The notes under the pieces: model-generated
What the model saw: the letters and a program-made list of their open reading frames with translations, nothing else
Database searches by the model: none
Told to the model about the DNA's origin: nothing
DNA from: Escherichia phage Cyrano
DNA: 64,000 nucleotides
Sequence record: OV696614
Reading direction: 5' to 3' (one strand)
Shown: in pieces, positions 10,686 through 51,100 of the stretch
How positions within the stretch are numbered: the first letter of the stretch is position 1
Layout of the letters: each line of letters starts with the position of its first letter
Position numbers and translations under genes: made by a program

Positions 10686-13025
10686 ATGGCAAAAGGAAAA
10701 TCCGCACTGGCACTTGCTCTGAAAAAGAAAATCGGTAGCAACGACGAAATTCAGAAAGTAACTCATTGGATTGACACAGGCTTTCCTCCGTTAAACAAAG
10801 CTATTTCCGGTCGTTACGATGGCGGTTTCCCATGTGGTCGTATCGTAGAAGTATTCGGGCCACCAAGCGCGGGGAAATGTGTTACCGCAGACACCATGCT
10901 GCTGACGGAGCGTGGAATGGTAACAGTGAAAGAACTGTTTGAGATTGAGGGGCACAAAGCAACATGCACTACTCGCGATGTAGAGCATAACGTTGGACTC
11001 ATCAATGAAAATGGCGTGATAGAGAAGACCTCACACCTGACATGGAACAACCGTCGCAAATTCAAGCGTATTAAGCTGGCATCAGGCGGTTATATCGAGG
11101 CTACGTTCCGTCACCCAATCCGTGTGGTTGACGACTTAGGTAATGTCGTCTGGCGACATGCTGAAAAAATCAGTGTAGGCGACACGATTCCTTCAATGGT
11201 TGGCACACATCAATTCGGCGATCAGCACCTGGATGCCAATATCGCAAAACTGATGGGCTATTTAATTGCTGACGGATACGTGGCCTCTGAAAATTCAGTG
11301 AATTTTTCTAACACAGATCCTTTCATCAAGGATGAGTACTACCGCCTCATTTCGCTGGTATCAGACAAGATGCCAGTTACGAGAAAACATAACGGCTCGG
11401 AAGACCATGTGCTGTTTAGCAAAGAGGTGCGTTCGCTGCTTTTTAAAGAGTATGGTCTGGAGTATGAGAAAGCTGCTGGCAAGCAGGTTCCGTTGAGTGT
11501 GCGTCGCGCCAATAGCGAGGCTCAAATTGCATTCCTTCGCGGCTACTTTGAGCTGGAATGCCACGTCAATGATGGTCGCTGCATTGAGGTTGTGAGCGCG
11601 AGTGGGCTGCTGCTACAGCAAATTCGCCTCATGCTCCTGAATCTGGGGATTACGTCAACTATCTCTGAAAAACACGTCGCGGGTTATGAAAATACATATT
11701 ACCGGCTGTCATTCAGTGGCTCTAATTACGACCTTTTTCTGTCAACGATTGGTTTCGAATCTCCGGCACGTTTATCAGTGGCAACCAAACGGGACATTGG
11801 TTTTGACCGCACTTACTCAGGCTATGTTCCGCACATCAGCGGCTTAGTGAAATCACTCTACGAGTCGCTCACCAAGACCACCCGTGAAGACTACGCTCTG
11901 GTAGACCACGTTATTGGCCGCGGCGATCGTGTCGGAATAGACAAACTGCGAGAAATCTATGTCTCCTTCATTGGCAGAAAGAATCGTTTTAACGAGCATC
12001 TGTTTGCACAACTGGCAGCGGTAATTGGCTCTAACTTGTTCTACGACGAAGTCGTGGCTATTGAGGAAGGTGAAGCACCAACGTTCGACGTAGCGATGCC
12101 GGAAACACACTCTTTCTGGTCTAACGGGATTATCAGCCACAACACATTCCTTGCAACAGCAGCGATGATCTCCGCTCAAAAACAAGATGGTCTGGCGGTA
12201 TTCCTCGATCATGAAAACAGTTTTGACGTTGGCCTGGCTGTAGCCAATGGCCTGAACGCAGATGAGGATGACGGTCAGTGGGTATACAAGCAGCCAGATA
12301 CCTTCGAAGACTCTGTAGAGTTGATCGGCACAATACTTAAATTGGTTCGTGATGAAGAGCTTATCCCCGAATCAGCACCTATCTGTATCGTGGCTGACTC
12401 TCTTGCGTCTATGGTTCCGAACTCCAAAGCCGAGAAGTTCGAAAAGATGGCTGAAGGCACTGCCAAAGACAAAGATCAGCTAAACATGAACGACAATACG
12501 GCACTGGCTCGTGCGACGAGTGCGAACTTCCCTACTCTGGCTTTGTGGGCACGCAAATACAACGCCTGCATCATCTTCTTGAATCAGGTTCGCACAAAAA
12601 TCGGTGTAATGTTTGGCGACCCTACTACGTCGCCAGGTGGAGATTCACCGAAGTTTTACGCTTCTGTGCGCATCCGTCTCGGTGCATCGGTGATGAAGGA
12701 TGGGAAAGAGAAGATCGGCCAGGACGTAGGCGCAGAATGCATCAAAAACAAAGTTGCACCACCGTATGGCAAATGCACCTGGAAATTCTACTTCGATCCT
12801 ACTCGTGGCCTCGACGTTATCGAGTCGCTCGTCGAGTACATGCTGGAAGAAGGATACCTGCCAAAGAACGCCAGCGGGCGAGTTGAAATTGGTGACAAGA
12901 AATACACCAAATCGCAGATCGTCGACATGTATCGGGAGAAGCCATTAGCAGAAATCATTGCTGCGTTACAGGCGATAGATGACCGACGAGAGAAGACATC
13001 ACCAACAGAAGAACTAGAAGATTAA
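10686..13025 (+). CDS. recA: RecA-family recombinase interrupted by an intein
   Basis: N-extein GRIVEVFGPPSAGK and C-extein TFLATAAMISAQ rebuild a RecA-like P-loop (GPPSAGKT). C-extein contains IFLNQVRTKIGVMFGDPTTSPGGDSPKFYASVRIR, very close to the RecA L2 region. Exteins total about 357 aa. Confidence 0.85.
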   Translation: MAKGKSALALALKKKIGSNDEIQKVTHWIDTGFPPLNKAISGRYDGGFPCGRIVEVFGPPSAGKCVTADTMLLTERGMVTVKELFEIEGHKATCTTRDVEHNVGLINENGVIEKTSHLTWNNRRKFKRIKLASGGYIEATFRHPIRVVDDLGNVVWRHAEKISVGDTIPSMVGTHQFGDQHLDANIAKLMGYLIADGYVASENSVNFSNTDPFIKDEYYRLISLVSDKMPVTRKHNGSEDHVLFSKEVRSLLFKEYGLEYEKAAGKQVPLSVRRANSEAQIAFLRGYFELECHVNDGRCIEVVSASGLLLQQIRLMLLNLGITSTISEKHVAGYENTYYRLSFSGSNYDLFLSTIGFESPARLSVATKRDIGFDRTYSGYVPHISGLVKSLYESLTKTTREDYALVDHVIGRGDRVGIDKLREIYVSFIGRKNRFNEHLFAQLAAVIGSNLFYDEVVAIEEGEAPTFDVAMPETHSFWSNGIISHNTFLATAAMISAQKQDGLAVFLDHENSFDVGLAVANGLNADEDDGQWVYKQPDTFEDSVELIGTILKLVRDEELIPESAPICIVADSLASMVPNSKAEKFEKMAEGTAKDKDQLNMNDNTALARATSANFPTLALWARKYNACIIFLNQVRTKIGVMFGDPTTSPGGDSPKFYASVRIRLGASVMKDGKEKIGQDVGAECIKNKVAPPYGKCTWKFYFDPTRGLDVIESLVEYMLEEGYLPKNASGRVEIGDKKYTKSQIVDMYREKPLAEIIAALQAIDDRREKTSPTEELED
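10878..12143 (+). mobile_element. intein with double-motif LAGLIDADG homing endonuclease, inserted in the RecA P-loop
   Basis: In-frame 422-aa insert starting with Cys (CVTADTML) and ending in His-Asn (IISHN) before Thr+1; LAGLIDADG-type motifs LMGYLIADGYV and FLRGYFELECHV. Confidence 0.75.
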
Positions 13026-36820: not shown

Positions 36821-36929
36821 TTGACCGAAATAGAGAGTTTGCACCTTTACGTTTAGCTTGCTCCCCTTTTATGCCACATCACAATAAAGCCAATAAGAAA
36901 ACAACTTGTTTAAGCATTAGGAAAAATAC

Positions 36930-37499
36930 ATGTGCAAGAAATGCAAAGCGATAGCTGATGAACAAAACGCCTTATTCGAAGAAATGGATGCTAATGAGCT
37001 GGTCAAAATGTTAGCCATTCTTCGAGGAATAGAAGACGTTTCCATATTTGAGAGAGTGGTTACAGCACTTAATTTTGAGTCCACCTTTGAAGAGCCAACT
37101 CAGGTTGTAGCTTTAGCACATCATTTCGGTGTTCATTATCTTGCTGAAAAAGAGCGCGCTGATAAGTTGCAGGCGACTTTGGATATGGTGAGCGAGACTC
37201 AACGAACTGATGACACTAACAAGAGTGAGGCGATTATTGCCAGCAAAGATCGTGAAATTGCTGGGCTTAAATCCTCTCTAACGATGTTGATGTCTGCGTT
37301 CAATCTTATGTCTTCTCAGGCGGGTTATAAAATGCCATCACTAAACAGCGATGATCCGATGGCCGTTCGTCAGCTTTTGGGAGCAATGGCCGACCAACTC
37401 GACGACACAAAGAGTCGCCTTGAAGACATGATGCGTGAGTTAAGCCATCGACATAACCTCGCAACACAACCACACAAAGTCTTTCAAAGCTCTAATTGA
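36930..37499 (+). CDS. hypothetical protein
   Basis: 189-codon ORF preceded by the AAAACAACTTGTTT upstream motif. Confidence 0.45.
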   Translation: MCKKCKAIADEQNALFEEMDANELVKMLAILRGIEDVSIFERVVTALNFESTFEEPTQVVALAHHFGVHYLAEKERADKLQATLDMVSETQRTDDTNKSEAIIASKDREIAGLKSSLTMLMSAFNLMSSQAGYKMPSLNSDDPMAVRQLLGAMADQLDDTKSRLEDMMRELSHRHNLATQPHKVFQSSN

Positions 37500-37553
37500 T
37501 CTGATATGGCCGCATGATCGGCCATATTGTGTTGATAAAAACAAGGGTGAAAA

Positions 37554-37835
37554 ATGGCATACGGTACAGGGATTTACAACAATAAAGGAATTAACGTTAC
37601 TGGCTTCCTTACACCTATTTTTTTTCTTGATCGATTTACGGCGTCATCAGGCTCTAAGACGTACTCTAATCCGCCACCGGGTAAATCACTACATGCCGTG
37701 TGGTCATTAATGCCTCTTAACAACGACAACTACATCAATTTACCTGTTCCAAATGTTACTATTAATGGAAATACGGTTAGTTGGTCAAATTTATATACGG
37801 GGCTTGGTTCTTACATATACACATACTGGGGATAA
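37554..37835 (+). CDS. hypothetical protein, AT-rich gene
   Basis: 93 aa rich in Asn/Tyr/Gly/Thr; GC content visibly lower than surrounding genes. Confidence 0.4.
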   Translation: MAYGTGIYNNKGINVTGFLTPIFFLDRFTASSGSKTYSNPPPGKSLHAVWSLMPLNNDNYINLPVPNVTINGNTVSWSNLYTGLGSYIYTYWG

Positions 37836-37837
37836 TT

Positions 37838-38452
37838 ATGTTCGGGATGTCAATTACTCAATCAGATGGAAGTTTGTGGATGAGTCCAGAATTTACTCCG
37901 CAAAATCTGATTAATAAAGGGACAATGTCTACATCTAAAGGTTCTGTTTTTCAAACATCAATCCCATCAAACAAATCATGTTTTTTTTTCATAAAAAGCA
38001 GTAATAAGGCGAACATGATGTTTATTCATGAGCATAGTAACGGATACAATGCTCTCAGATTGCATCAGGTAAATGGTAGCCCCGGAACAATAACAGTTTA
38101 TGCTTTTTCTGATATGGTGTTACCACATTCTGGCTATGGCATTGCCATGTATAACAGCGCAGGCGCAATGGTGTATCACGGTGAGATGATGCCCCTTGAT
38201 GCGAAACTTATCACTATTTCTGACCCTCAATTTACAATAGATATGGGGTATCCATGTGCGGTAATGCCTGCTATGGTTGGAGTATATAACTATAGACGAA
38301 CCGATTACGACAGACCTGTCTATGTAACAATGACAGGTGCAACTGGAAACCAAGTATATAACGGTAAATGGTATTCCGGTAATGTCACATGGGATATTAA
38401 GAAGATTTATACAAACAAAATTCTGGTGATAAATACCTCCAAGTATGATTAG
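37838..38452 (+). CDS. hypothetical protein, AT-rich gene
   Basis: Start set at ATG two nt after the upstream stop; about 204 aa, Asn/Tyr/Ser-rich, same low-GC composition. Confidence 0.4.
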   Translation: MFGMSITQSDGSLWMSPEFTPQNLINKGTMSTSKGSVFQTSIPSNKSCFFFIKSSNKANMMFIHEHSNGYNALRLHQVNGSPGTITVYAFSDMVLPHSGYGIAMYNSAGAMVYHGEMMPLDAKLITISDPQFTIDMGYPCAVMPAMVGVYNYRRTDYDRPVYVTMTGATGNQVYNGKWYSGNVTWDIKKIYTNKILVINTSKYD

Positions 38453-38555
38453 CCAATGCCTTTATTTGAAGGATTGCCTGTTTATTTCTATTTAGTACCT
38501 TTTCATTTTTGAAATAATTGCACCATTAAACAAATCACTTCTTAATGGTGCAATT

Positions 38556-40241
38556 ATGAATACAGCCCTTTCCATCATCGACGATGCCAACTCAAACACT
38601 GCTATCGACTATCGGCAGGAAATGAACGTCATCCACGAAATTGTGGCCGAGTGCGAGAAAGAGATCGCTTTCATGTACCAGGTTCACGACTTCGTTTATG
38701 GCGACGAACGCCACAACATGATTAATCGCCTGCTGCAACTGAACCACCGACCAGATGAAGAACGCTCACGTTTGAATCGAGCTTGGCTGGATAAAGTCGA
38801 TCTGGAATGGGTGAAACAGAATATTTGGGCCGAGTACTGGAGGAAGGTCACGGACATGACTAACGTTTTGCTGATCATGCCAGCTTCCCGTCGAGATGAG
38901 TGGCGCGAGCAGTTTATAGAGGGCAAACAGGAAGTCATCAAAACTGACAGAACCGGCTACCAGATGAAGGTTAAAGAGTTCGTTGGTGTACCGGAGTTCA
39001 AAGCAGAAACGGTCATACCCACGATGCTTAATTTGCTGAATGACAGGCACAAATATCTCTCTGAGCGCGTGTATGGCTTGTTTAAGGCGCTGAGTCCTGC
39101 GCACAAGACAAATAAGACAAACGGTTTCAGCGAGCGGCTGATAATCGCTGACTGCATTTCTGATTTCTGGCGGGACAGCGTTAGCGTGAACTATCGCAAA
39201 GAGGACTACATCGACGATCTGCGTGTCTTGCTTCATTTCTTCGCGCACAAAGAATTTATTACCATCAACCGCACTGCTGAGGTGCTATCAGCTGCGTATC
39301 GGGCAAACGACTGCCAGACCGGTGACTGGATGAACGTCGATGGAAATCTGATGCGCGTGAAGATGTTCAAGAACGGCAACGTTCACTTTGAAATACATCC
39401 TGACGTGGCCTGGAAGTTGAATGAGGTGCTGGCTTACAGTATGCCTGCTGCAATTCCCGCGCCATGCCGAACTGCGCCAAAAACACGGGCACCAAAGCAG
39501 TTCGGGTTAATCCAGAAGACGATCTCCGTGCCGGTTCGCACTGCGCTTCGTGACGGGCGATTGAGCAAAGACAAAGGCGTATGGTACTTCTCTGATTCAG
39601 CTCTCCAGAAGTCGCAGGTGGAAGAGCTTGAGCGCACACTGAGCTTCATTGGCGGCGTGCAGGAGAAAAAGCACTGGCAGTTCCCGTATGACATCGGCCA
39701 TACGCTAAATACGATTGTGGCTACCGGTTTAATACCGGATACAAAATCACACCAGTTCTACCCTACCCCACGCTTGATTGCTGAGTACGTTGCCAGAGCC
39801 ACTGAATTGAAGCCTGGTGAGAAGCTGCTTGAGCCTCAAGCCGGACGTGGGGATCTTCTGGCCTATATTAACGCCGATCTGGAAGATGTTACCTGCATAG
39901 AAATCGCACCTCTCTTCGCTGATATCCTGCGTGGAAAAGGGTATACGAACACGATTTGCTGCGACTTCATAAAGTGGTCTGAGGACAACGCAGGTTATCA
40001 GTTCGACAAAATCGTTATGAACCCGCCGTACTCGCTTGGTCGTCATAGAGAGCACACGCTGGCTGCGCTGGGGCATCTGAAAGTCGGCGGGCGTCTTGTA
40101 GCAGTATTGCCGGGCACTGCGCCAATCCTGAGCTGGATGACGATGGATAATTACGTTTATGCCAAAGGGAAGTCGTTTACCAACGAGTTTGAAGATACCG
40201 GGATCACAGTCAGCGTATACGTTTTCAAACGCGTTAAATGA
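38556..40241 (+). CDS. putative N6-adenine DNA methyltransferase with large N-terminal domain of unknown function
   Basis: C-terminal region has an AdoMet-binding-like LEPQAGRGDL followed by catalytic NPPYS (IVMNPPYSLGR); N-terminal ~400 aa unassigned. Confidence 0.5.
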   Translation: MNTALSIIDDANSNTAIDYRQEMNVIHEIVAECEKEIAFMYQVHDFVYGDERHNMINRLLQLNHRPDEERSRLNRAWLDKVDLEWVKQNIWAEYWRKVTDMTNVLLIMPASRRDEWREQFIEGKQEVIKTDRTGYQMKVKEFVGVPEFKAETVIPTMLNLLNDRHKYLSERVYGLFKALSPAHKTNKTNGFSERLIIADCISDFWRDSVSVNYRKEDYIDDLRVLLHFFAHKEFITINRTAEVLSAAYRANDCQTGDWMNVDGNLMRVKMFKNGNVHFEIHPDVAWKLNEVLAYSMPAAIPAPCRTAPKTRAPKQFGLIQKTISVPVRTALRDGRLSKDKGVWYFSDSALQKSQVEELERTLSFIGGVQEKKHWQFPYDIGHTLNTIVATGLIPDTKSHQFYPTPRLIAEYVARATELKPGEKLLEPQAGRGDLLAYINADLEDVTCIEIAPLFADILRGKGYTNTICCDFIKWSEDNAGYQFDKIVMNPPYSLGRHREHTLAALGHLKVGGRLVAVLPGTAPILSWMTMDNYVYAKGKSFTNEFEDTGITVSVYVFKRVK

Positions 40242-44931: not shown

Positions 44932-45321
44932 ATGGGCTTCCCTTCTCCTGCGGCGGATTATGCTGAGAGCCGTATTTCTCTTGATCAGCAGATAATTAGA
45001 CATCCTTCAGCGACCTACTTCATGAGGGCAGCTGATAGTCATCATCGTGAGGGAATATTACAGGGTGCATTGCTGGTGGTCGATTCCTCACTTACCCCGG
45101 TTGATGGTTCTCTGCTTGTATGCGCTCTGGATGGGGAATATCGCGTAAAAAGATACCGGAAGTACCCACGTCAGCATCTGGAGGATTTAAGAACCGGTAA
45201 GAAGGAAGCATTGCCAAAGGATGACGATGGATGCACGGGCAGCAATGCCGTGTTTGGTGTGATCACTCACATTATCAACGACGCAAGAAGTGGCGAGTTT
45301 GATGATTGTCCCGTGATGTAG
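44932..45321 (+). CDS. humD: UmuD'-like protein (HumD-like, S24 LexA-type peptidase fold)
   Basis: Starts MGFPSPAADY..., i.e. at the position where UmuD is cleaved to UmuD'; HPSATYFMRA and VFGVITHII blocks match UmuD; in-frame stop 15 nt upstream; no umuC gene follows. Confidence 0.75.
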   Translation: MGFPSPAADYAESRISLDQQIIRHPSATYFMRAADSHHREGILQGALLVVDSSLTPVDGSLLVCALDGEYRVKRYRKYPRQHLEDLRTGKKEALPKDDDGCTGSNAVFGVITHIINDARSGEFDDCPVM

Positions 45322-45333
45322 GAGAACTGATTA

Positions 45334-45358
45334 GGCGGTGCATTGCACCGCCTTTTTA
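45334..45358 (+). terminator. rho-independent terminator between humD-like gene and apbC
   Basis: Hairpin GGCGGTGCA-T-TGCACCGCC followed by TTTTT. Confidence 0.55.
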
Positions 45359-46459
45359 TCACACTGCGCGGAATGCGATTTCGCCAGGTATTACTTCACC
45401 TTGCCAATACATTTGGGCAGCAACGCGATCTGCGAGGTCACGATAAATAGCCGTAAATTCGCTATCTGGACGACTAATAACGGTTGGTGTTCCGTTATCC
45501 AGATCTTCACGAAGAGAGATATGAAGTGGCATTTGGCCTAACAACTGCGTGTTGTATTTCTCGGCCAGTTTCTGTGCGCCACCGGTGCCAAAAATTGGCT
45601 CGTGATGACCGCAGTTACTGCAAATATGCACACTCATGTTTTCGACGATACCCAGTACCGGCACTTCGACTTTTTCGAACATCACAATGCCTTTCTTCGC
45701 ATCGATCAGCGCGATGTCTTGCGGCGTAGTTACCACAACCGCACCAGTTACAGGAATGTTCTGCGCCAGCGTCAACTGAATATCACCAGTGCCCGGCGGC
45801 ATATCGAGAACGAGATAGTCCAGATCAGGCCACAGTGTTTCCTGCAACATCTGCATCAGCGCCTTGCTGGCCATCGGTCCACGCCACACCATCGCATTGT
45901 CGTCAGTGACCAGATAACCAATTGAATTGGTTGCCAGGCCATGAGACATGATAGGTGCCATGTGAGTACCGTCAGGTGAGGTTGGACGTTGGTTTTCCGC
46001 GCCCAGCATGGTTGGAATTGATGGCCCGTAGATATCGGCATCCAAAATACCAACTTTCGCACCTTCAGCCGCCAGCGCCAGCGCCAGGTTTACCGCCGTG
46101 GAGGATTTACCCACGCCGCCTTTACCGGAGCTGACCGCAATGATGTTCTTCACGCCATTAATGCCTGGTTGGTTTTTGACGCGCTTAAGCGTGGCAATGT
46201 TGTACGACAGCTTCCAGTCAATAGCCTTTGCGCCAGTGATACGGAGCAGATCACCACTACATTGCTCTTTCAGATCTTCAAAAGGCTTATTCCACACGAA
46301 AGGCATGATTAGTTCGACATGCAGTGTGTCATCCATCAACGCAACATGGTGTAACGCTTTAAGCGTAGTCAGGTTGTGTTTCAGGGTTGGGTGCTGAAAA
46401 TTAGCCAGCGTACCGGCTACCATTGCTCTCAGGGCATCCGGCGATTTGGACTCGCTCAT
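45359..46459 (-). CDS. apbC: Fe-S cluster carrier ATPase ApbC/Mrp
   Basis: 366 aa with deviant Walker A SGKGGVGKSSTAVNLA and CSNCGHHEP motif; matches the enterobacterial Mrp protein by recall; divergent from metG as on the E. coli chromosome. Confidence 0.9.
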   Translation of the reverse strand: MSESKSPDALRAMVAGTLANFQHPTLKHNLTTLKALHHVALMDDTLHVELIMPFVWNKPFEDLKEQCSGDLLRITGAKAIDWKLSYNIATLKRVKNQPGINGVKNIIAVSSGKGGVGKSSTAVNLALALAAEGAKVGILDADIYGPSIPTMLGAENQRPTSPDGTHMAPIMSHGLATNSIGYLVTDDNAMVWRGPMASKALMQMLQETLWPDLDYLVLDMPPGTGDIQLTLAQNIPVTGAVVVTTPQDIALIDAKKGIVMFEKVEVPVLGIVENMSVHICSNCGHHEPIFGTGGAQKLAEKYNTQLLGQMPLHISLREDLDNGTPTVISRPDSEFTAIYRDLADRVAAQMYWQGEVIPGEIAFRAV

Positions 46460-46616
46460 CCCGTCTCCTTTATTTTAATTTGCGCAATTGTCGCCTTGTA
46501 GTGTACTCCAGCTACGACATTTAATCATTTATGAGAAATGCTGTTATCACATGGCAGACATAAGGCCATTTTGTTACTATCAAGCCCCTTTTCACTACAA
46601 AGAAGTAATGCCTACT

Positions 46617-48650
46617 ATGACCCAAGTCGCGAAGAAAATTCTGGTGACGTGCGCGCTGCCGTACGCTAACGGCTCAATCCACCTCGGCCATATGCTGGAG
46701 CACATCCAGGCTGATGTCTGGGTTCGTTACCAGCGAATGCGCGGCCACGAGGTTAATTTCATCTGTGCCGACGATGCCCACGGTACGCCGATCATGCTGA
46801 AAGCACAGCAGCTTGGTATCACACCGGAGCAGATGATTGGCGAAATGAGTCAGGAGCATCAGACTGATTTCGCAGGCTTTAACATCAGCTATGACAACTA
46901 TCACTCGACGCACAGCGAAGAGAACCGTCAGTTGTCTGAGCTTATCTATACTCGCCTGAAAGAGAACGGTTTTATTAAAAACCGCACTATCTCTCAGTTG
47001 TACGACCCGGAAAAAGGCATGTTCCTGCCGGATCGTTTTGTGAAAGGCACCTGCCCGAAATGTAAAGCGCCAGATCAATACGGCGATAACTGTGAAGTCT
47101 GCGGCGCAACATATAGCCCGACTGAATTGATCGAGCCGAAATCGGTGGTTTCTGGCGCTACCCCGGTAATGCGTGATTCCGAACACTTCTTCTTTGATCT
47201 GCCTTCTTTCAGCGAAATGTTGCAGGCATGGACCCGCAGCGGCGCGTTGCAGGAGCAGGTGGCAAACAAAATGCAGGAGTGGTTTGAATCTGGCCTGCAA
47301 CAGTGGGATATCTCCCGCGATGCGCCTTACTTCGGTTTTGAAATTCCGGACGCGCCGGGCAAATATTTCTACGTCTGGCTGGACGCGCCGATTGGCTACA
47401 TGGGTTCCTTCAAGAATCTGTGCGACAAGCGCGGCGATACCACCAGCTTCGATGAATACTGGAAGAAAGACTCCACCGCCGAGCTGTACCACTTCATCGG
47501 TAAAGATATTGTTTACTTCCACAGCCTGTTCTGGCCTGCCATGCTGGAAGGCAGCAACTTCCGCAAGCCGACCAACCTGTTTGTTCACGGCTATGTGACG
47601 GTGAACGGCGCGAAGATGTCCAAGTCTCGCGGCACCTTTATTAAAGCCAGCACCTGGCTGAATCATTTTGACGCTGACAGCCTGCGTTACTACTACACTG
47701 CGAAACTCTCTTCGCGCATTGATGATATCGATCTCAACCTGGAGGATTTCGTTCAGCGCGTGAATGCCGATATCGTGAACAAAGTGGTTAACCTGGCCTC
47801 CCGTAATGCAGGCTTTATCAACAAGCGTTTTGACGGCGTGCTGGCAAGCGAACTGGCTGACCCGCAACTGTACAAAACCTTTACTGATGCCGCTGAAGTG
47901 ATTGGCGAAGCATGGGAAAGCCGTGAATTTGGTAAAGCTATCCGTGAAATCATGGCATTGGCTGACCTGGCTAACCGCTATGTCGATGAACAGGCTCCGT
48001 GGGTGGTGGCGAAGCAGGAAGGACGCGATGCCGATCTGCAGGCGATTTGCTCTATGGGCATTAACCTGTTCCGCGTGCTGATGACGTACCTGAAGCCGGT
48101 ACTGCCGAAACTGACTGAACGTGCAGAAGCATTCCTGAATACAGAACTGACCTGGGATGGCATCCAGCAACCGTTGCTGGGCCATAAAGTGAATCCGTTC
48201 AAGGCACTGTATAACCGCATCGATATGAAGCAGGTTGAAGCACTGGTGGAAGCATCCAAAGAAGAAGTGAAAGCCACAGCCGCACCGGTAACTGGCCCAC
48301 TGGCTGACGACCCGATTCAGGAAACTATCACCTTTGACGACTTCGCCAAAGTTGACCTGCGCGTGGCGCTGATTGAAAACGCAGAGTTTGTAGAAGGTTC
48401 TGACAAACTGCTACGCCTGACGCTGGATCTCGGTGGTGAAAAGCGTAATGTCTTCTCAGGCATCCGTTCTGCTTATCCAGACCCACAGGCACTGATTGGT
48501 CGTCACACCATTATGGTGGCTAACCTGGCTCCGCGTAAAATGCGCTTCGGTATCTCCGAAGGCATGGTGATGGCTGCTGGCCCCGGCGGGAAAGATATCT
48601 TCCTGTTAAGCCCGGATGCTGGTGCTAAACCAGGCCACCAGGTTAAGTAA
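46617..48650 (+). CDS. metG: methionyl-tRNA synthetase
   Basis: 677 aa starting [26 protein letters not shown] (HIGH motif), KMSKS motif present, zinc knuckles CPKC...CEVC; near-identical to E. coli MetG by recall. Start set at ATG 46617, not the listed upstream 46488. Confidence 0.95.
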
Positions 48651-48696: not shown

Positions 48697-48811
48697 CATA
48701 TAGACACAATCCCTTCTGATTTACACAGTACCTAAAACAATTTGTTTTCTGCCTTTTGTTGATTGAGATAATAAGCCACATAAGAAAACAAATTGTTTCG
48801 GAGTGGTTGAA

Positions 48812-49111
48812 ATGTTGAACATTACCCAAGCCTACCAGGTGGCATTGATCAGTTCATCTCATACATCAGAGGAAGATGCTCGCCGATTCATGATCGCAAG
48901 CAATGAGCTGGATTGGGTTTCACAAATTGATGGCGGTTGTATTGTCCACGCCGGGTTACAGGATGATGTCTGGAAAGAGGACTTGCGTCGATATGGTATA
49001 TCCGAAGGCGCGATTGCTAACATTCAGAAAGTACTTGATGTAGGCTTTGACTCTGTACATTTTGATTGTGGTGCACCGGTCGTTGAAGGGCTTGAGTGCT
49101 GGAACTGGTAA
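48812..49111 (+). CDS. hypothetical protein
   Basis: ATG with GGAGTGG RBS, preceded by two copies of the AAAACAAnTTGTTT motif. Confidence 0.45.
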   Translation: MLNITQAYQVALISSSHTSEEDARRFMIASNELDWVSQIDGGCIVHAGLQDDVWKEDLRRYGISEGAIANIQKVLDVGFDSVHFDCGAPVVEGLECWNW

Positions 49112-49994: not shown

Positions 49995-50790
49995 GTTATA
50001 GTTGTTTATACAATCAAGAAAACAACTGAATAACAGATCAACGAAACGTCAACGCTTTCACCCGATTTGGCCTAAAAAATTGACGTTTTCACACATCACT
50101 GCTTATACCCGTAATTCTACGCAGCAGACAGCACCACAGCGTTCAATTTTCACCACAGACGACTCAACACACTACCAACAAAAACACACGCTCAAAATCG
50201 CTCCCGTTGCGTTACATAACCATATAAACAACTTATTTTCAGGCATAACAAAACAACTAAATAACACATATGCCATTACCCAAAACAACCAACCTCTTTA
50301 TGGCAGGCTACCGAAAAGACCCACCTCTTCTTCCCAGGCTACCGGACAACCAACCTAACTTTCACAGGCAATCCGAAAACATTCATACGCGCGATACCCA
50401 CGACACGCCATTACCCAAACAGCGAAGAAACACCAGAATCACTGAAACCCCAACGAAGCCTGTAACCGCAAGGTTTCTCTCAATCCCAAAAGACACGAAA
50501 CATAACAATCACGGGAAACGCCATTACCCAATACACGAATAACTACAAAAGCCTTTCACACACTCCAGACAAACAACTCAAACACAATAACGAAAGGAAT
50601 CGCCCACCTGCCATTACTCCATACACGGAGAAGAACAATCACCAAAACGACGAGAACACCCCATAGAAGAACCACCGCAAAACTAACGAAACCACATACA
50701 CCGACAGAGAAAACAACACACCCAATTCACCAACAGAAATAGTCGCCGTATAGAACGTTCTGGAAGGAGTGAGCATTAACGCCTATAGAG
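49995..50790. repeat. G-depleted CA-rich non-coding segment with GCCATTACCCAA direct repeats
   Basis: About 800 nt with very few G on the plus strand; GCCATTAC(C/T)CAA(A/T)ACA recurs at about 50271, 50408, 50519 and 50600; CAGGCTACCG recurs at 50303 and 50336. Confidence 0.55.
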
Positions 50791-50939
50791 AGGTTGAAAC
50801 AGATAAAACACGAAGAAAACACAACATGTATAGCGAACAAGACAGGTATGTATAAGTGGGGAGGGAAGGAGGGGTGTCGCCTCCTTTTTCGTATTTATTC
50901 AACTCCTGATTTTATCCCCCGTAACACCCCTACGGTCAG

Positions 50940-51100
50940 CCTTCGGTCCATACAGGGAAAAGGCTGCATCCCGCTACAGAAACGGCTGGGTTGCCTTCGG
51001 GGAACGGCTGGAGGTTTTCAGGGAAACGGTCGAGTTGCCTGTGTGGATTTCGGGAAAAGGCTCGATGCCGGTTCAGGAACGGCGGCGTACCGGTATAGCG
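50940..51100. repeat. array of GGAAACGGC-type direct repeats
   Basis: CAGGGAAAAGGCTGC, CAGAAACGGCTGG, GGGGAACGGCTGG, CAGGGAAACGGTCG, CGGGAAAAGGCTCG and CAGGAACGGCGGCG at roughly 20-25 bp spacing; a similar array lies at 54604-54720. Confidence 0.55.

What the first reader, a model, noticed from the sequence alone, without database searches (positions are those of the whole stretch)
37554..38555. AT-rich two-gene island followed by a long palindrome covering the start of the methyltransferase gene
Two Asn/Tyr/Gly-rich proteins are encoded by DNA of visibly lower GC than the flanks, suggesting recent acquisition. Immediately downstream, the inverted repeat AATTGCACCATTAA-N12-TTAATGGTGCAATT ends exactly at the ATG of the 561-aa putative N6-adenine methyltransferase, a layout suited to translational or transcriptional control of the methylase.
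Basis: seen in the sequence. Interest (0 to 1): 0.45.

Follow-up and report, generated by a model that had tools for sequence, protein, structure and literature searches.

The report
Relocated phage receptor-binding genes plus methylase-leader hairpin
The two AT-rich genes are most likely the tail-tip receptor-binding module of an SSU5-like E. coli phage-plasmid, moved from the tail operon into an early-gene hot spot, and the palindrome next to them is a real, lineage-specific hairpin over the methylase start site whose regulatory role is plausible but unproven.

Summary
Both observations are real. The window is an SSU5-like E. coli phage-plasmid.

**The two genes**
- Genes A (37554-37835) and B (37838-38452) have 38% GC against 46% for the window. 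That is about 2 SD low and not unique.
- They belong to PHROG 557 and PHROG 425. This pair follows the central tail-fibre gene J in T1 (gp32/gp31), Nonagvirus JenP1, Warwickvirus tonijn and Stx phages.
- SSU5 and island-less E. coli relatives carry their own A/B copy in the tail operon. Island-bearing plasmids carry none there. Each genome therefore has one module, in one of two places.
- The "island" is a displaced host-range cassette, not a cargo gene of unknown function.

**The palindrome**
- The palindrome (38514-38529 / 38542-38557) lies outside the exchanged segment.
- Its left arm is the -10 region of a promoter/operator module repeated across the genome. Its right arm covers the methylase Shine-Dalgarno sequence and ATG.
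- The RNA hairpin (-19 to -20.6 kcal/mol) is strong in three lineages, with three compensatory pair changes. It is absent from SSU5.
- The best reading is that it masks the methylase start in read-through transcripts. This is inferred, not shown.

The parts
36899..36911 (+). Perfect copy of the small palindrome AAACAA-N-TTGTTT (operator-like) in the promoter module upstream of gene U. U, and probably A and B, are likely transcribed from here.
36930..37499 (+). Gene U (189 aa, phrog_5508, function unknown). This is the conserved left neighbour. Its last 14 codons lie inside the exchanged segment.
37458..38497 (+). Exchanged segment (the 'island'). It replaces 121 bp in island-less relatives: the end of U, the terminator GGGGGCGAAAGCCCCC-T run, and the upstream part of the promoter.
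   Evidence: with sequences
37506..37525 (+). Small hairpin ATGGCCG-catgat-CGGCCAT after U. It has no clear T run and the scan did not call it a terminator.
37554..37835 (+). Gene A, 93 aa. PHROG 557; small beta-sandwich. Homologue of T1 gp32, SSU5_023, JenP1 gp22 and VT2-Sakai orf63. Proposed adaptor between the tail-fibre tip and the receptor-binding protein.
   Evidence: PMC12309495
37838..38452 (+). Gene B, 204 aa. PHROG 425; all-beta. Proposed receptor-binding protein. Homologue of T1 gp31, SSU5_024 and JenP1 gp21. Remote relative of the Rtp44 / Oekolampad receptor-binding protein.
38510..38518 (+). Predicted extended -10 promoter element TGaAATAAT (TG at 38510-11, hexamer at 38513-18) of the methylase. 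It is conserved as TGnGATAAT in orthologous leaders and in paralogous modules. The predicted transcription start is about 38525.
   Evidence: inference from consensus; no transcription-start data
38514..38529 (+). Left arm of the inverted repeat, ATAATTGCACCATTAA. It overlaps the -10 hexamer and the predicted transcription start.
38528..38540 (+). Degenerate remnant (AAACAAATCACTT, 3 mismatches) of the operator-like palindrome, which is perfect in SSU5-type leaders. It lies mostly in the hairpin loop, overlapping the last two bases of the left arm.
38542..38557 (+). Right arm, TTAATGGTGCAATTAT. It contains the SD-like GGTG (38547-38550) and the first two bases of the methylase ATG.
38556..40241 (+). 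561-aa orphan DNA methyltransferase (DUF4942 plus an N6-adenine-type catalytic domain with NPPY).

Best explanation
Part 1, about 0.8 likely. Genes A and B are the tail-tip receptor-recognition module of this SSU5-like siphovirus phage-plasmid. A is a small adaptor and B is a receptor-binding protein that dock on the end of the central tail fibre J. In this Escherichia/Shigella lineage the module is an allele close to that of Nonagvirus JenP1. It came with JenP1-like lateral tail-fibre genes. It sits not in the tail operon but in an accessory-gene hot spot between gene U and the methylase, in the early/DNA-metabolism region. It is probably co-transcribed with U. The receptor it binds is unknown.

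Part 2, about 0.4 likely. The palindrome acts as an RNA hairpin. Its upstream arm coincides with the -10 region and start site of the methylase's own extended -10 promoter. mRNAs made from that promoter therefore lack the arm and are translatable. Transcripts reading through from U-A-B contain both arms and bury the methylase Shine-Dalgarno and AUG, and no terminator remains in this lineage to stop them. This would uncouple methylase synthesis from upstream transcription.

Shown: gene family membership, fold match, mutually exclusive genomic positions, host restriction, hairpin stability, compensatory changes, and lack of structure in paralogous leaders.

Inferred: virion incorporation, promoter and transcription start, existence of read-through RNA, and any effect on translation.
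For: Element identity: the window is 100% identical to E. coli plasmids of the SSU5 type, with annotated context.

Family membership of A and B:
- A matches phrog_557 (E 6e-29) and B matches phrog_425 (E 3e-72).
- The same ordered pair follows gene J in T1 (gp32/gp31, then cor), tonijn (with a Cor-like gene), JenP1 and VT2-Sakai.
- PMC12309495 modelled PHROG 557 plus PHROG 425 as the tail-spike tip complex.

Fold and remote homology:
- B matches the profile of the Rtp44 family, phrog_1265, at E 2e-6 over its C-terminal two-thirds.
- The N-terminus of A aligns weakly with the N-terminus of Rtp44.

One module per genome:
- SSU5 has A/B/Cor in its tail operon.
- The plasmid identical to the window has no second A/B and no Cor.
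- Of 242 plasmids with a B-like gene, 73 E. coli records carry the tail-operon type and 116 the island type, with 251 places in all.
- 11 of 12 listed tail-operon-type records have the island-less junction. The context of one was checked.

Source and host range: the lateral fibre genes are 83% and 53% identical to those of JenP1. The island occurs only in Escherichia/Shigella (117 of 118 records), whereas the methylase occurs in six or more genera.

Hairpin:
- Stability is -20.6 kcal/mol, z -6.1.
- RNA started at the predicted transcription start is unstructured.
- Nine paralogous promoter-module leaders in the same genome have z about 0, against -7.6 here.
- Three stem positions show compensatory changes: G:C/A:U, U:A/A:U and C:G/A:U. 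Both one-sided changes in the island clade are C-to-U, which keeps G.U pairs.
- One compensatory variant was seen again in a metagenome.
- The stem was built by changes in the left arm in one clade and in the right arm in another.
- No terminator-like site lies on the + strand between U and the methylase. SSU5-type and L014-type relatives have one there.
Against: Module:
- A and B lie about 45 kb from the tail genes, among early genes. No virion proteomics or adsorption data exist for them.
- The C-terminal domain of J is shared by island-bearing and island-less relatives, so it does not discriminate.
- Profile-to-sequence similarity to Rtp44 is weak.
- No Cor-type exclusion partner is present.

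Hairpin:
- The stem is absent from most of the family (SSU5-type z +1.15).
- Covariation statistics are modest: score 0.053 against 0.042 shuffled, with 6 of 500 shuffles as high, and the sequences are related.
- The promoter and transcription start are predicted from consensus only. The scan tool did not call a promoter there.
- The L014 clade has a 12-bp stem although it keeps a terminator upstream.
- The inverse relation between operator integrity and hairpin strength has one counter-example (L102).
Confidence: 0.55

Rival explanations
1. The palindrome is a DNA operator. A dimeric protein binds the two arms and represses the promoter it overlaps (-12 to +32). That protein could be the methylase itself through its N-terminal region, or another phage-plasmid regulator.
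For: The repeat is perfect and overlaps the predicted -10 and start site. Methylases that repress their own promoters through inverted repeats are known (own knowledge: SsoII-type and EcoRII-type enzymes). In the clades with the long repeat, the usual small operator-like palindrome of this promoter family is damaged, as if one control had replaced another.
Against: The arms covary rather than keep a fixed sequence. One-sided changes are G.U-compatible, which matters for RNA and not for a protein site. The half-site is not enriched elsewhere in the window: 13 hits at <=2 mismatches against 7.6 expected. The arm centres are 28 bp apart, about 2.7 helical turns, so they lie on different faces. 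Pfam finds no DNA-binding domain in the methylase.
Confidence: 0.15
2. The hairpin serves the upstream genes. It would act as a 3'-end stabiliser, a processing site (for example RNase III) or a weak terminator for the U-A-B transcript, taking over from the intrinsic terminator lost in the exchange.
For: The island clade lost the GGGGGCGAAAGCCCCC-T terminator and has the strongest stem. In JenP1 the same cassette is followed directly by a strong hairpin. A 16-bp perfect stem sits 62 nt after the stop of B.
Against: No U run follows the stem, so it fails the terminator pattern. Stems of 12-13 bp also occur in L014-type and L047 leaders, which have no A/B upstream. The stem is positioned exactly over the methylase SD and ATG, which a 3'-end element would not need.
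Confidence: 0.15
3. The palindrome has no function of its own. Chance complementarity between a conserved AT-rich promoter element (ATAAT..CACCA) and an AT-rich ribosome-binding region (TGGTG..ATTAT) was extended by a few neutral substitutions or by recombination between promoter-module copies.
For: The core complementarity (ATAAT/ATTAT, CACCA/TGGTG) comes from elements conserved for other reasons: the left side is shared by paralogous promoters. Most of the family does without the stem. Only three clades show it, and the statistics are modest.
Against: Three clades reached or kept long stems by different substitutions, on different arms, all in the pairing direction. None of nine paralogous module leaders shows any excess structure. 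A perfect 16/16 repeat is expected fewer than 0.01 times in 64 kb (own estimate; only two exist).
Confidence: 0.15
4. A and B are accessory lysogeny genes (morons) and not virion parts. For example, they could be decoys that interfere with tail assembly or adsorption of competing phages that use the same module.
For: They sit in a hot spot that in relatives holds typical accessory or defence cargo: HsdM, a P-loop ATPase, a P22 gp17-like exclusion protein and secreted small proteins. PHROGs files phrog_425 under 'moron'. The location is an early-gene region.
Against: Neither protein has a signal peptide or lipobox (sequences), so they cannot reach outer-membrane receptors from inside the cell. 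Island-bearing genomes have no other A/B module, whereas all checked island-less relatives have one in the tail operon. PADLOC gives no defence-system match.
Confidence: 0.1

Closest known systems
[quoted passage not shown] 2021, PMC8594841; Matusiak et al. 2025, PMC12309495)
   Same: Same two PHROG families (557, 425), same gene order and close spacing, similar sizes. The predicted folds are a beta-sandwich plus a larger all-beta protein. Pairwise similarity to T1 is E 1e-5 and 3e-4.
   Different: Here the pair is about 45 kb from J, inside an early-gene cluster. It has no cor-type exclusion gene, and its allele is the Nonagvirus JenP1 type. The receptor is unknown: the family includes FhuA users (T1, JLBYU60) and a BamA user (phi24B), according to the papers cited.
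Rtp44 / RBP of phage Oekolampad with Rtp45 (LptD-binding receptor-binding protein and its exclusion lipoprotein; PMC12685063, PDB 9RPT)
   Different: Rtp44 is one chain of 311 aa. Here the equivalent seems split into A (93 aa) and B (204 aa). Sequence similarity is marginal. LptD binding is not implied.
Displaced adhesin genes, e.g. gp38 about 55 kb from gp37 in Krishvirus (bioRxiv 10.64898/2026.04.02.716166)
   Same: A receptor-recognition gene separated from the tail-fibre genes it works with.
   Different: Different protein families and phage type. Here the displacement is polymorphic within one family of phage-plasmids and goes into an accessory-gene hot spot.
Fold-back inhibition of IS10/IS50 transposase mRNA (own knowledge: Davis, Simons & Kleckner 1985; Krebs & Reznikoff 1986)
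   Same: An inverted repeat whose downstream arm covers the ribosome-binding site. The gene's own promoter starts transcription inside or after the upstream arm, so only read-through transcripts fold and are silenced.
   Different: Not a transposase. The start site is only predicted here, and the effect is untested. The upstream arm is also part of a repeated promoter module.
Dispersed C1 operators of phage-plasmid P1 (own knowledge), and promoter/stem-loop cassettes (PeSL) that flank shuffled genes in T4-type phages (own knowledge: Arbiol et al. 2010)
   Same: A short regulatory motif repeated at many promoters of one phage genome. The motifs lie at the borders of variable gene cassettes.
   Different: The motif here (AAACAA-N-TTGTTT downstream of TGnGATAAT) is symmetric and unrelated in sequence. 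Its binding protein is unknown.

Membership tests
PHROG 557 + PHROG 425 tail-tip module (T1 gp32/gp31 type RBP locus) | Sequence membership of both proteins | tested here: met
   phrog_557 E 6.1e-29 over 1-93; phrog_425 E 2.7e-72 over 1-204
PHROG 557 + PHROG 425 tail-tip module (T1 gp32/gp31 type RBP locus) | Small gene directly followed by the larger gene on the same strand | tested here: met
   The TAA of A ends at 37835 and the ATG of B is at 37838. The order is the same in T1, JenP1, tonijn, VT2-Sakai and SSU5.
PHROG 557 + PHROG 425 tail-tip module (T1 gp32/gp31 type RBP locus) | Position immediately downstream of the central tail fibre gene J | tested here: not met
   In the identical plasmid, J is followed after 145 bp by lateral fibre genes. 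A/B lie about 45 kb away between U and the methylase.
PHROG 557 + PHROG 425 tail-tip module (T1 gp32/gp31 type RBP locus) | Accompanying superinfection-exclusion lipoprotein (Cor type) | tested here: not met
   No Cor homologue in the window or in L081/L082 (tblastn). One is present in SSU5, T1 and tonijn.
PHROG 557 + PHROG 425 tail-tip module (T1 gp32/gp31 type RBP locus) | Part of the virion and binds an outer-membrane receptor | not testable with these tools
   Indirect support only: exactly one module per genome.
Rtp44 / Oekolampad RBP family (phrog_1265) | Full-length single-chain homology (about 310 aa) | tested here: not met
   B matches only profile positions 158-286 at E 2.2e-6. hhalign against Rtp44 gives E 0.042 for B and 0.16 for A.
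Rtp44 / Oekolampad RBP family (phrog_1265) | Shared fold | tested here: met
Moron (self-contained accessory gene with its own promoter and terminator) | Own promoter upstream and terminator downstream | tested here: not met
   The scan finds no sigma-70-like promoter between U and A and no +-strand terminator after B.
Intrinsic transcription terminator | G+C-rich stem followed by a U run | tested here: not met
   The stem is A+U-rich and is followed by GAAUACAGCCC. It is not reported by the terminator scan.
Fold-back inhibition (IS10/IS50 type) | Downstream arm of an inverted repeat covers the SD and start codon | tested here: met
   The right arm 38542-38557 contains GGTG (38547-50) and the AT of the ATG.
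Fold-back inhibition (IS10/IS50 type) | Own promoter starts transcription within or after the upstream arm | tested here: inconclusive
   A conserved TGnGATAAT element at 38510-18 predicts a start near 38525. RNA from 38525 is unstructured. There are no experimental 5' ends.
Fold-back inhibition (IS10/IS50 type) | Read-through transcripts are translationally silent | not testable with these tools
   Needs reporter fusions.
Known RNA families (Rfam 15) | Match to a curated covariance model | tested here: not met
   Only one chance-level hit (rliH, 13.5 bits against a 100-bit gathering score) in 37300-38800.
Known anti-phage defence systems (PADLOC) | Match of A or B to a defence-protein model | tested here: not met
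   No families for A or B at E <= 0.1.

The most novel reading that the evidence does not exclude
SSU5-like phage-plasmids may use a repeated promoter/operator module (TGnGATAAT-ACACCAA-AAACAA-N-TTGTTT) in two ways: as the regulon of an unidentified master regulator, and as the joints at which gene cassettes are swapped. Even the essential receptor-binding module would move through these joints. Where a swap destroys the operator and the terminator of the methylase promoter, selection would build an RNA hairpin from the promoter's own -10 region and the ribosome-binding site as a replacement control. A protein-operator switch would thus be exchanged for a cis-RNA switch at the same promoter.
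Probability: 0.2. Interest if true: 0.6.

Novelty: new variant of a known kind. Interest (0 to 1): 0.45.

Why it matters
**Host range.** Receptor-binding modules decide which bacteria a phage can infect. In these widespread E. coli phage-plasmids, which often carry resistance genes (PMC9600943), the module is not where genome annotators and receptor-prediction tools look for it. It is annotated as 'hypothetical' or 'membrane protein'. Host-range prediction from the tail operon alone would therefore miss it.

The one-module-per-genome pattern supports by comparative genomics the still untested proposal that PHROG 557/425 proteins are tail-tip receptor binders. It also points to a natural pair of near-isogenic plasmids (island type and tail-operon type) for testing it.

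**Regulation.** The leader hairpin and the repeated operator-like motif give concrete, mutable targets for working out how an orphan protective methylase and the early genes of this little-studied family are controlled.

Tried and rejected
- Defence-system models for A and B gave no match (PADLOC).
- Sequence search of A and B against PDB chains gave nothing useful.
- Pfam and NCBIfam gave only a sub-threshold DUF6453 hit for B. The one paper that mentions DUF6453 was not informative.
- Rfam returned nothing for the region.
- The sigma-70 and terminator scan did not call the methylase promoter, because the -35 is poor, or any +-strand terminator.
- I tested whether the C-terminal domain of J covaries with island presence. 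It does not: SSU5 has the same domain at 79% identity, and 1,834 phage records carry it.
- I tested whether the hairpin simply tracks loss of the upstream terminator. It does not do so cleanly: the L014 type has both a terminator and a 12-bp stem.
- I tested whether hairpin strength is strictly inverse to operator integrity. This held in the first set, but the metagenome scan gave one counter-example (L102). That scan added no new compensatory events.
- The genome-contig scan found only three loci.
- I looked for direct repeats or a site-specific recombination signature at the island borders. None was convincing.
- The T1 cryo-EM paper does not resolve the distal tip, so it gives no experimental placement of gp31/gp32 (PMC11945409).
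Full report
**What the window is.** The region is 100% identical to about 105-110 kb non-mobilizable E. coli plasmids and 88-99% identical to records filed as Escherichia phages CMS-2020a and PhiR41_1. Its methylase gene matches Salmonella phage SSU5. The annotated twin plasmid pAVS0747-B shows the finding lies in a long same-strand block of DNA-metabolism and early genes: nrdAB, thyA, dhfr, a Dam-type methylase and RNase H. The siphovirus tail genes are about 45 kb away. The element is therefore an SSU5-like phage-plasmid.

**Checking the observation.** ORFs A (37554-37835, 93 aa) and B (37838-38452, 204 aa) and the 561-aa ORF (38556-40241) are as described.
- A+B is 38.3% GC against 45.9 +/- 3.5% for windows of the same size. 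Only 3.3% of windows are as low, but four other stretches are equally low. GC3 is 0.36 against 0.47 +/- 0.07. This is real but moderate.
- The palindrome is perfect with 16-nt arms (38514-38529 and 38542-38557) and a 12-nt loop. It is one of two such repeats in the 64 kb.
- As RNA it folds at -20.6 kcal/mol, z = -6.1.
- The 561-aa protein carries DUF4942, an NPPY motif and methylase profile matches.

**What the two genes are.** A and B are full-length members of PHROG 557 and PHROG 425. Their database labels, 'outer membrane protein' and 'membrane associated protein', are not based on experiments, and neither protein has a signal peptide.

The same ordered pair lies next to the central tail fibre gene J in unrelated phages:
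- T1 gp32/gp31, followed by cor
- Warwickvirus tonijn, with a Cor-like gene
- Nonagvirus JenP1
- the Stx phages 933W and VT2-Sakai, where it lies before lom

That position is the hypervariable 'bona fide RBP locus', whose alleles track receptor specificity in small siphoviruses (PMC8594841; bioRxiv 10.64898/2026.04.02.716166). A 2025 modelling study proposed that the PHROG 557 protein forms an adaptor on the tip of J and that the 'hand-like' PHROG 425 protein binds the receptor: FhuA for JLBYU60 and BamA for phi24B (PMC12309495).

**The decisive comparison.** SSU5 lacks the island but has its own A/B/Cor set (SSU5_023-025) at the end of its tail operon. The plasmid identical to the window has no second A/B and no Cor in the 96.7 kb I could search.

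Across PLSDB, 242 plasmids carry a B-like gene at 251 places:
- 51 have a copy >=99% identical to the SSU5 gene (Enterobacter, Salmonella, Citrobacter).
- 73 E. coli records have a 75%-identical tail-operon copy.
- 116 have only the island copy.
- Every listed row had a single place.

Eleven of the twelve listed E. coli records with the tail-operon copy have the island-less U-methylase junction. I checked one of them, pIso00225_02: its order is J, tail fibre, A-like, B-like, then holin and endolysin with the same protein accessions as in the island-bearing plasmid.

Each genome thus has one module in one of two places. This is what an essential virion part would show and an optional cargo gene would not.

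The island-bearing lineage also has lateral tail-fibre genes 83% and 53% identical to those of JenP1. Its A/B are 76-82% identical to JenP1's. The whole host-recognition kit therefore appears to share a Nonagvirus-like source. The island is confined to Escherichia and Shigella (117 of 118 records), although the methylase backbone occurs in Enterobacter, Klebsiella, Salmonella and Citrobacter as well. A more divergent A/B allele sits in the same neighbourhood in another relative (L080).

**Where the island sits.** Against island-less relatives, homology ends at 37457 (inside the last codons of U) and resumes at 38498. The exchanged 1,040 bp replaced the end of U, an intrinsic terminator (GGGGGCGAAAGCCCCC plus a T run) and the upstream edge of the methylase promoter.

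In other relatives the same junction holds other cargo:
- a type I HsdM
- a P-loop ATPase
- a P22 gp17-like exclusion protein
- small secreted proteins

It is therefore a general hot spot. No promoter or +-strand terminator is predicted inside the island. A and B are probably transcribed with U from the promoter upstream of U.

**What the palindrome is.** It lies wholly in the conserved part, not in the island.

Aligning the methylase leaders of 28 distinct relatives shows a shared architecture: CTTTTAyGCCTT, about 10 nt, TGnGATAAT, (T/A)ACACCAA, AAACAA-N-TTGTTT, then the ribosome-binding region TAATGGTG and the ATG. The same module, with a different downstream gene, precedes at least six other ORFs in the window. 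The 13-bp palindrome AAACAA-N-TTGTTT occurs 13 times at <=1 mismatch against 0.5 expected.

I read TGnGATAAT as an extended -10 promoter and the small palindrome as an operator for an unidentified regulator. Both are inferences from consensus.

- The right arm is the SD-like GGTG and the start codon.
- The predicted start (about 38525) falls inside the left arm. RNA from that point is unstructured (-2.4 kcal/mol, z +0.5).

**Is the pairing selected?** The full 16-bp stem exists only in the island clade. A 12-bp stem occurs in the island-less E. coli clade (L014 type) and a 13-bp stem in the most divergent relative (L047). SSU5-type and L040-type leaders keep only CACCA/TGGTG and ATAAT/ATTAT and do not fold better than shuffles.

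- Three stem positions show changes on both sides: G:C against A:U, U:A against A:U (L077, seen again in metagenome locus L114), and C:G against A:U (L047).
- The two one-sided changes in the island clade are C-to-U opposite G.
- The island clade reached complementarity through changes in the left arm. The L014 clade reached it through a change in the right arm.
- The formal counts are modest: 80% of cells paired, covariation 0.053 against 0.042 in shuffles, 6 of 500 shuffles as high, and clearly above slid registers. The sequences are related, so I treat this as supportive and not conclusive.
- As a control, nine paralogous module leaders in the same genome have MFE 0.0 to -5.8 and z about 0, against -19.1 and z -7.6 for the methylase leader. 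The stem is therefore not a by-product of the module.
- Leaders with a perfect small operator have weak folds (-1.0 to -9.7). Those with one mismatch reach -12 to -14, and those with two or three reach -16.5 to -19.5. The metagenome scan added one operator-damaged leader without a hairpin, so this is a tendency across about three independent events and not a rule.

**Mechanism.** The best-supported reading is an RNA hairpin that hides the methylase ribosome-binding site only in transcripts that begin upstream. Such transcripts are expected in the island clade, where the terminator was lost. mRNAs from the methylase's own promoter would lack the left arm. This works like fold-back inhibition of IS10/IS50 transposase (own knowledge).

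The rivals are a DNA operator, a 3'-end element for the A/B message, and a neutral by-product. None is excluded. They are listed with the results that would separate them.

**Verdict.** The acquisition idea is right in spirit, but the island is the phage's receptor-binding module in an unusual place. The palindrome is a real, lineage-specific feature of the methylase leader with circumstantial evidence for selection on pairing. This is a new variant of known kinds and moderately interesting, mostly for host-range prediction in phage-plasmids and as a tractable regulatory puzzle.

Noticed in passing
window 14216, 25947, 36170, 36899, 41439, 48735, 48786, 50226, 51422, 51907, 52811, 53561, 54046: A 13-bp palindrome, AAACAA-N-TTGTTT, occurs 13 times at <=1 mismatch against 0.5 expected. 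It usually lies just downstream of a conserved TGnGATAAT-ACACCAA element and 12-45 nt before a start codon. It looks like the operator set of an unidentified regulator of the early genes, reminiscent of the dispersed C1 operators of P1.
   Followed up: partly
window 48735-48798: Two copies of that palindrome form a second perfect 16-nt inverted repeat (32-nt spacer). They bracket a TGaGATAAT promoter element upstream of the small ORF at 48803-49111, just after metG.
   Followed up: partly
L026 1910-2329(-), L052 1913-2326(-), L047 1808-2251(-), L030 391-1953(-), L033 42-2111(-), L044 2109-2396(+): In relatives, the same junction upstream of the methylase holds other cargo: small secreted proteins, a type I HsdM methylase, a 689-aa P-loop ATPase and a P22 gp17-like superinfection-exclusion protein. 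This marks an accessory and defence-gene hot spot.
   Followed up: partly
L066-L077 (e.g. L068 2501-2974): In several island-bearing contigs only the first ~157 residues of the methylase are homologous to the window's protein. The N-terminal module therefore appears fused to a different C-terminal part.
   Followed up: no
window 46488-48650 and about 45300-46400 (-): The phage-plasmid carries a full methionyl-tRNA synthetase (metG) and an apbC iron-sulfur carrier gene in a block of higher GC (0.50-0.54). An S24 peptidase gene lies next to them.
   Followed up: no
window 50001-51000: Extreme strand asymmetry: GC skew -0.43 then -0.17, AT skew +0.32 then +0.38. The sequence is C/A-rich with no convincing gene. 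It could be a repeat or origin-like region.
   Followed up: no
window 10686-13025: The twin plasmid's annotation lists a 779-aa ORF here as a LAGLIDADG homing endonuclease, within the replication gene cluster. It may be an intein or a free-standing homing gene.
   Followed up: no
L087 10611-11216 (SSU5_024): tblastn with B aligns from 10611, 42 nt upstream of the annotated start of SSU5_024. The annotated SSU5 gene is probably too short by 14 codons.
   Followed up: no
L002 4820-4850 (JenP1): In JenP1 the A/B cassette ends in a strong hairpin (AAATGTGCACACAT-TA-TGTGTGCACATTT) and lies on the strand opposite to the tail genes. Rtp45/Rtp44 in phage RTP and the A/B genes in tonijn are arranged in the same way.
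   Followed up: partly
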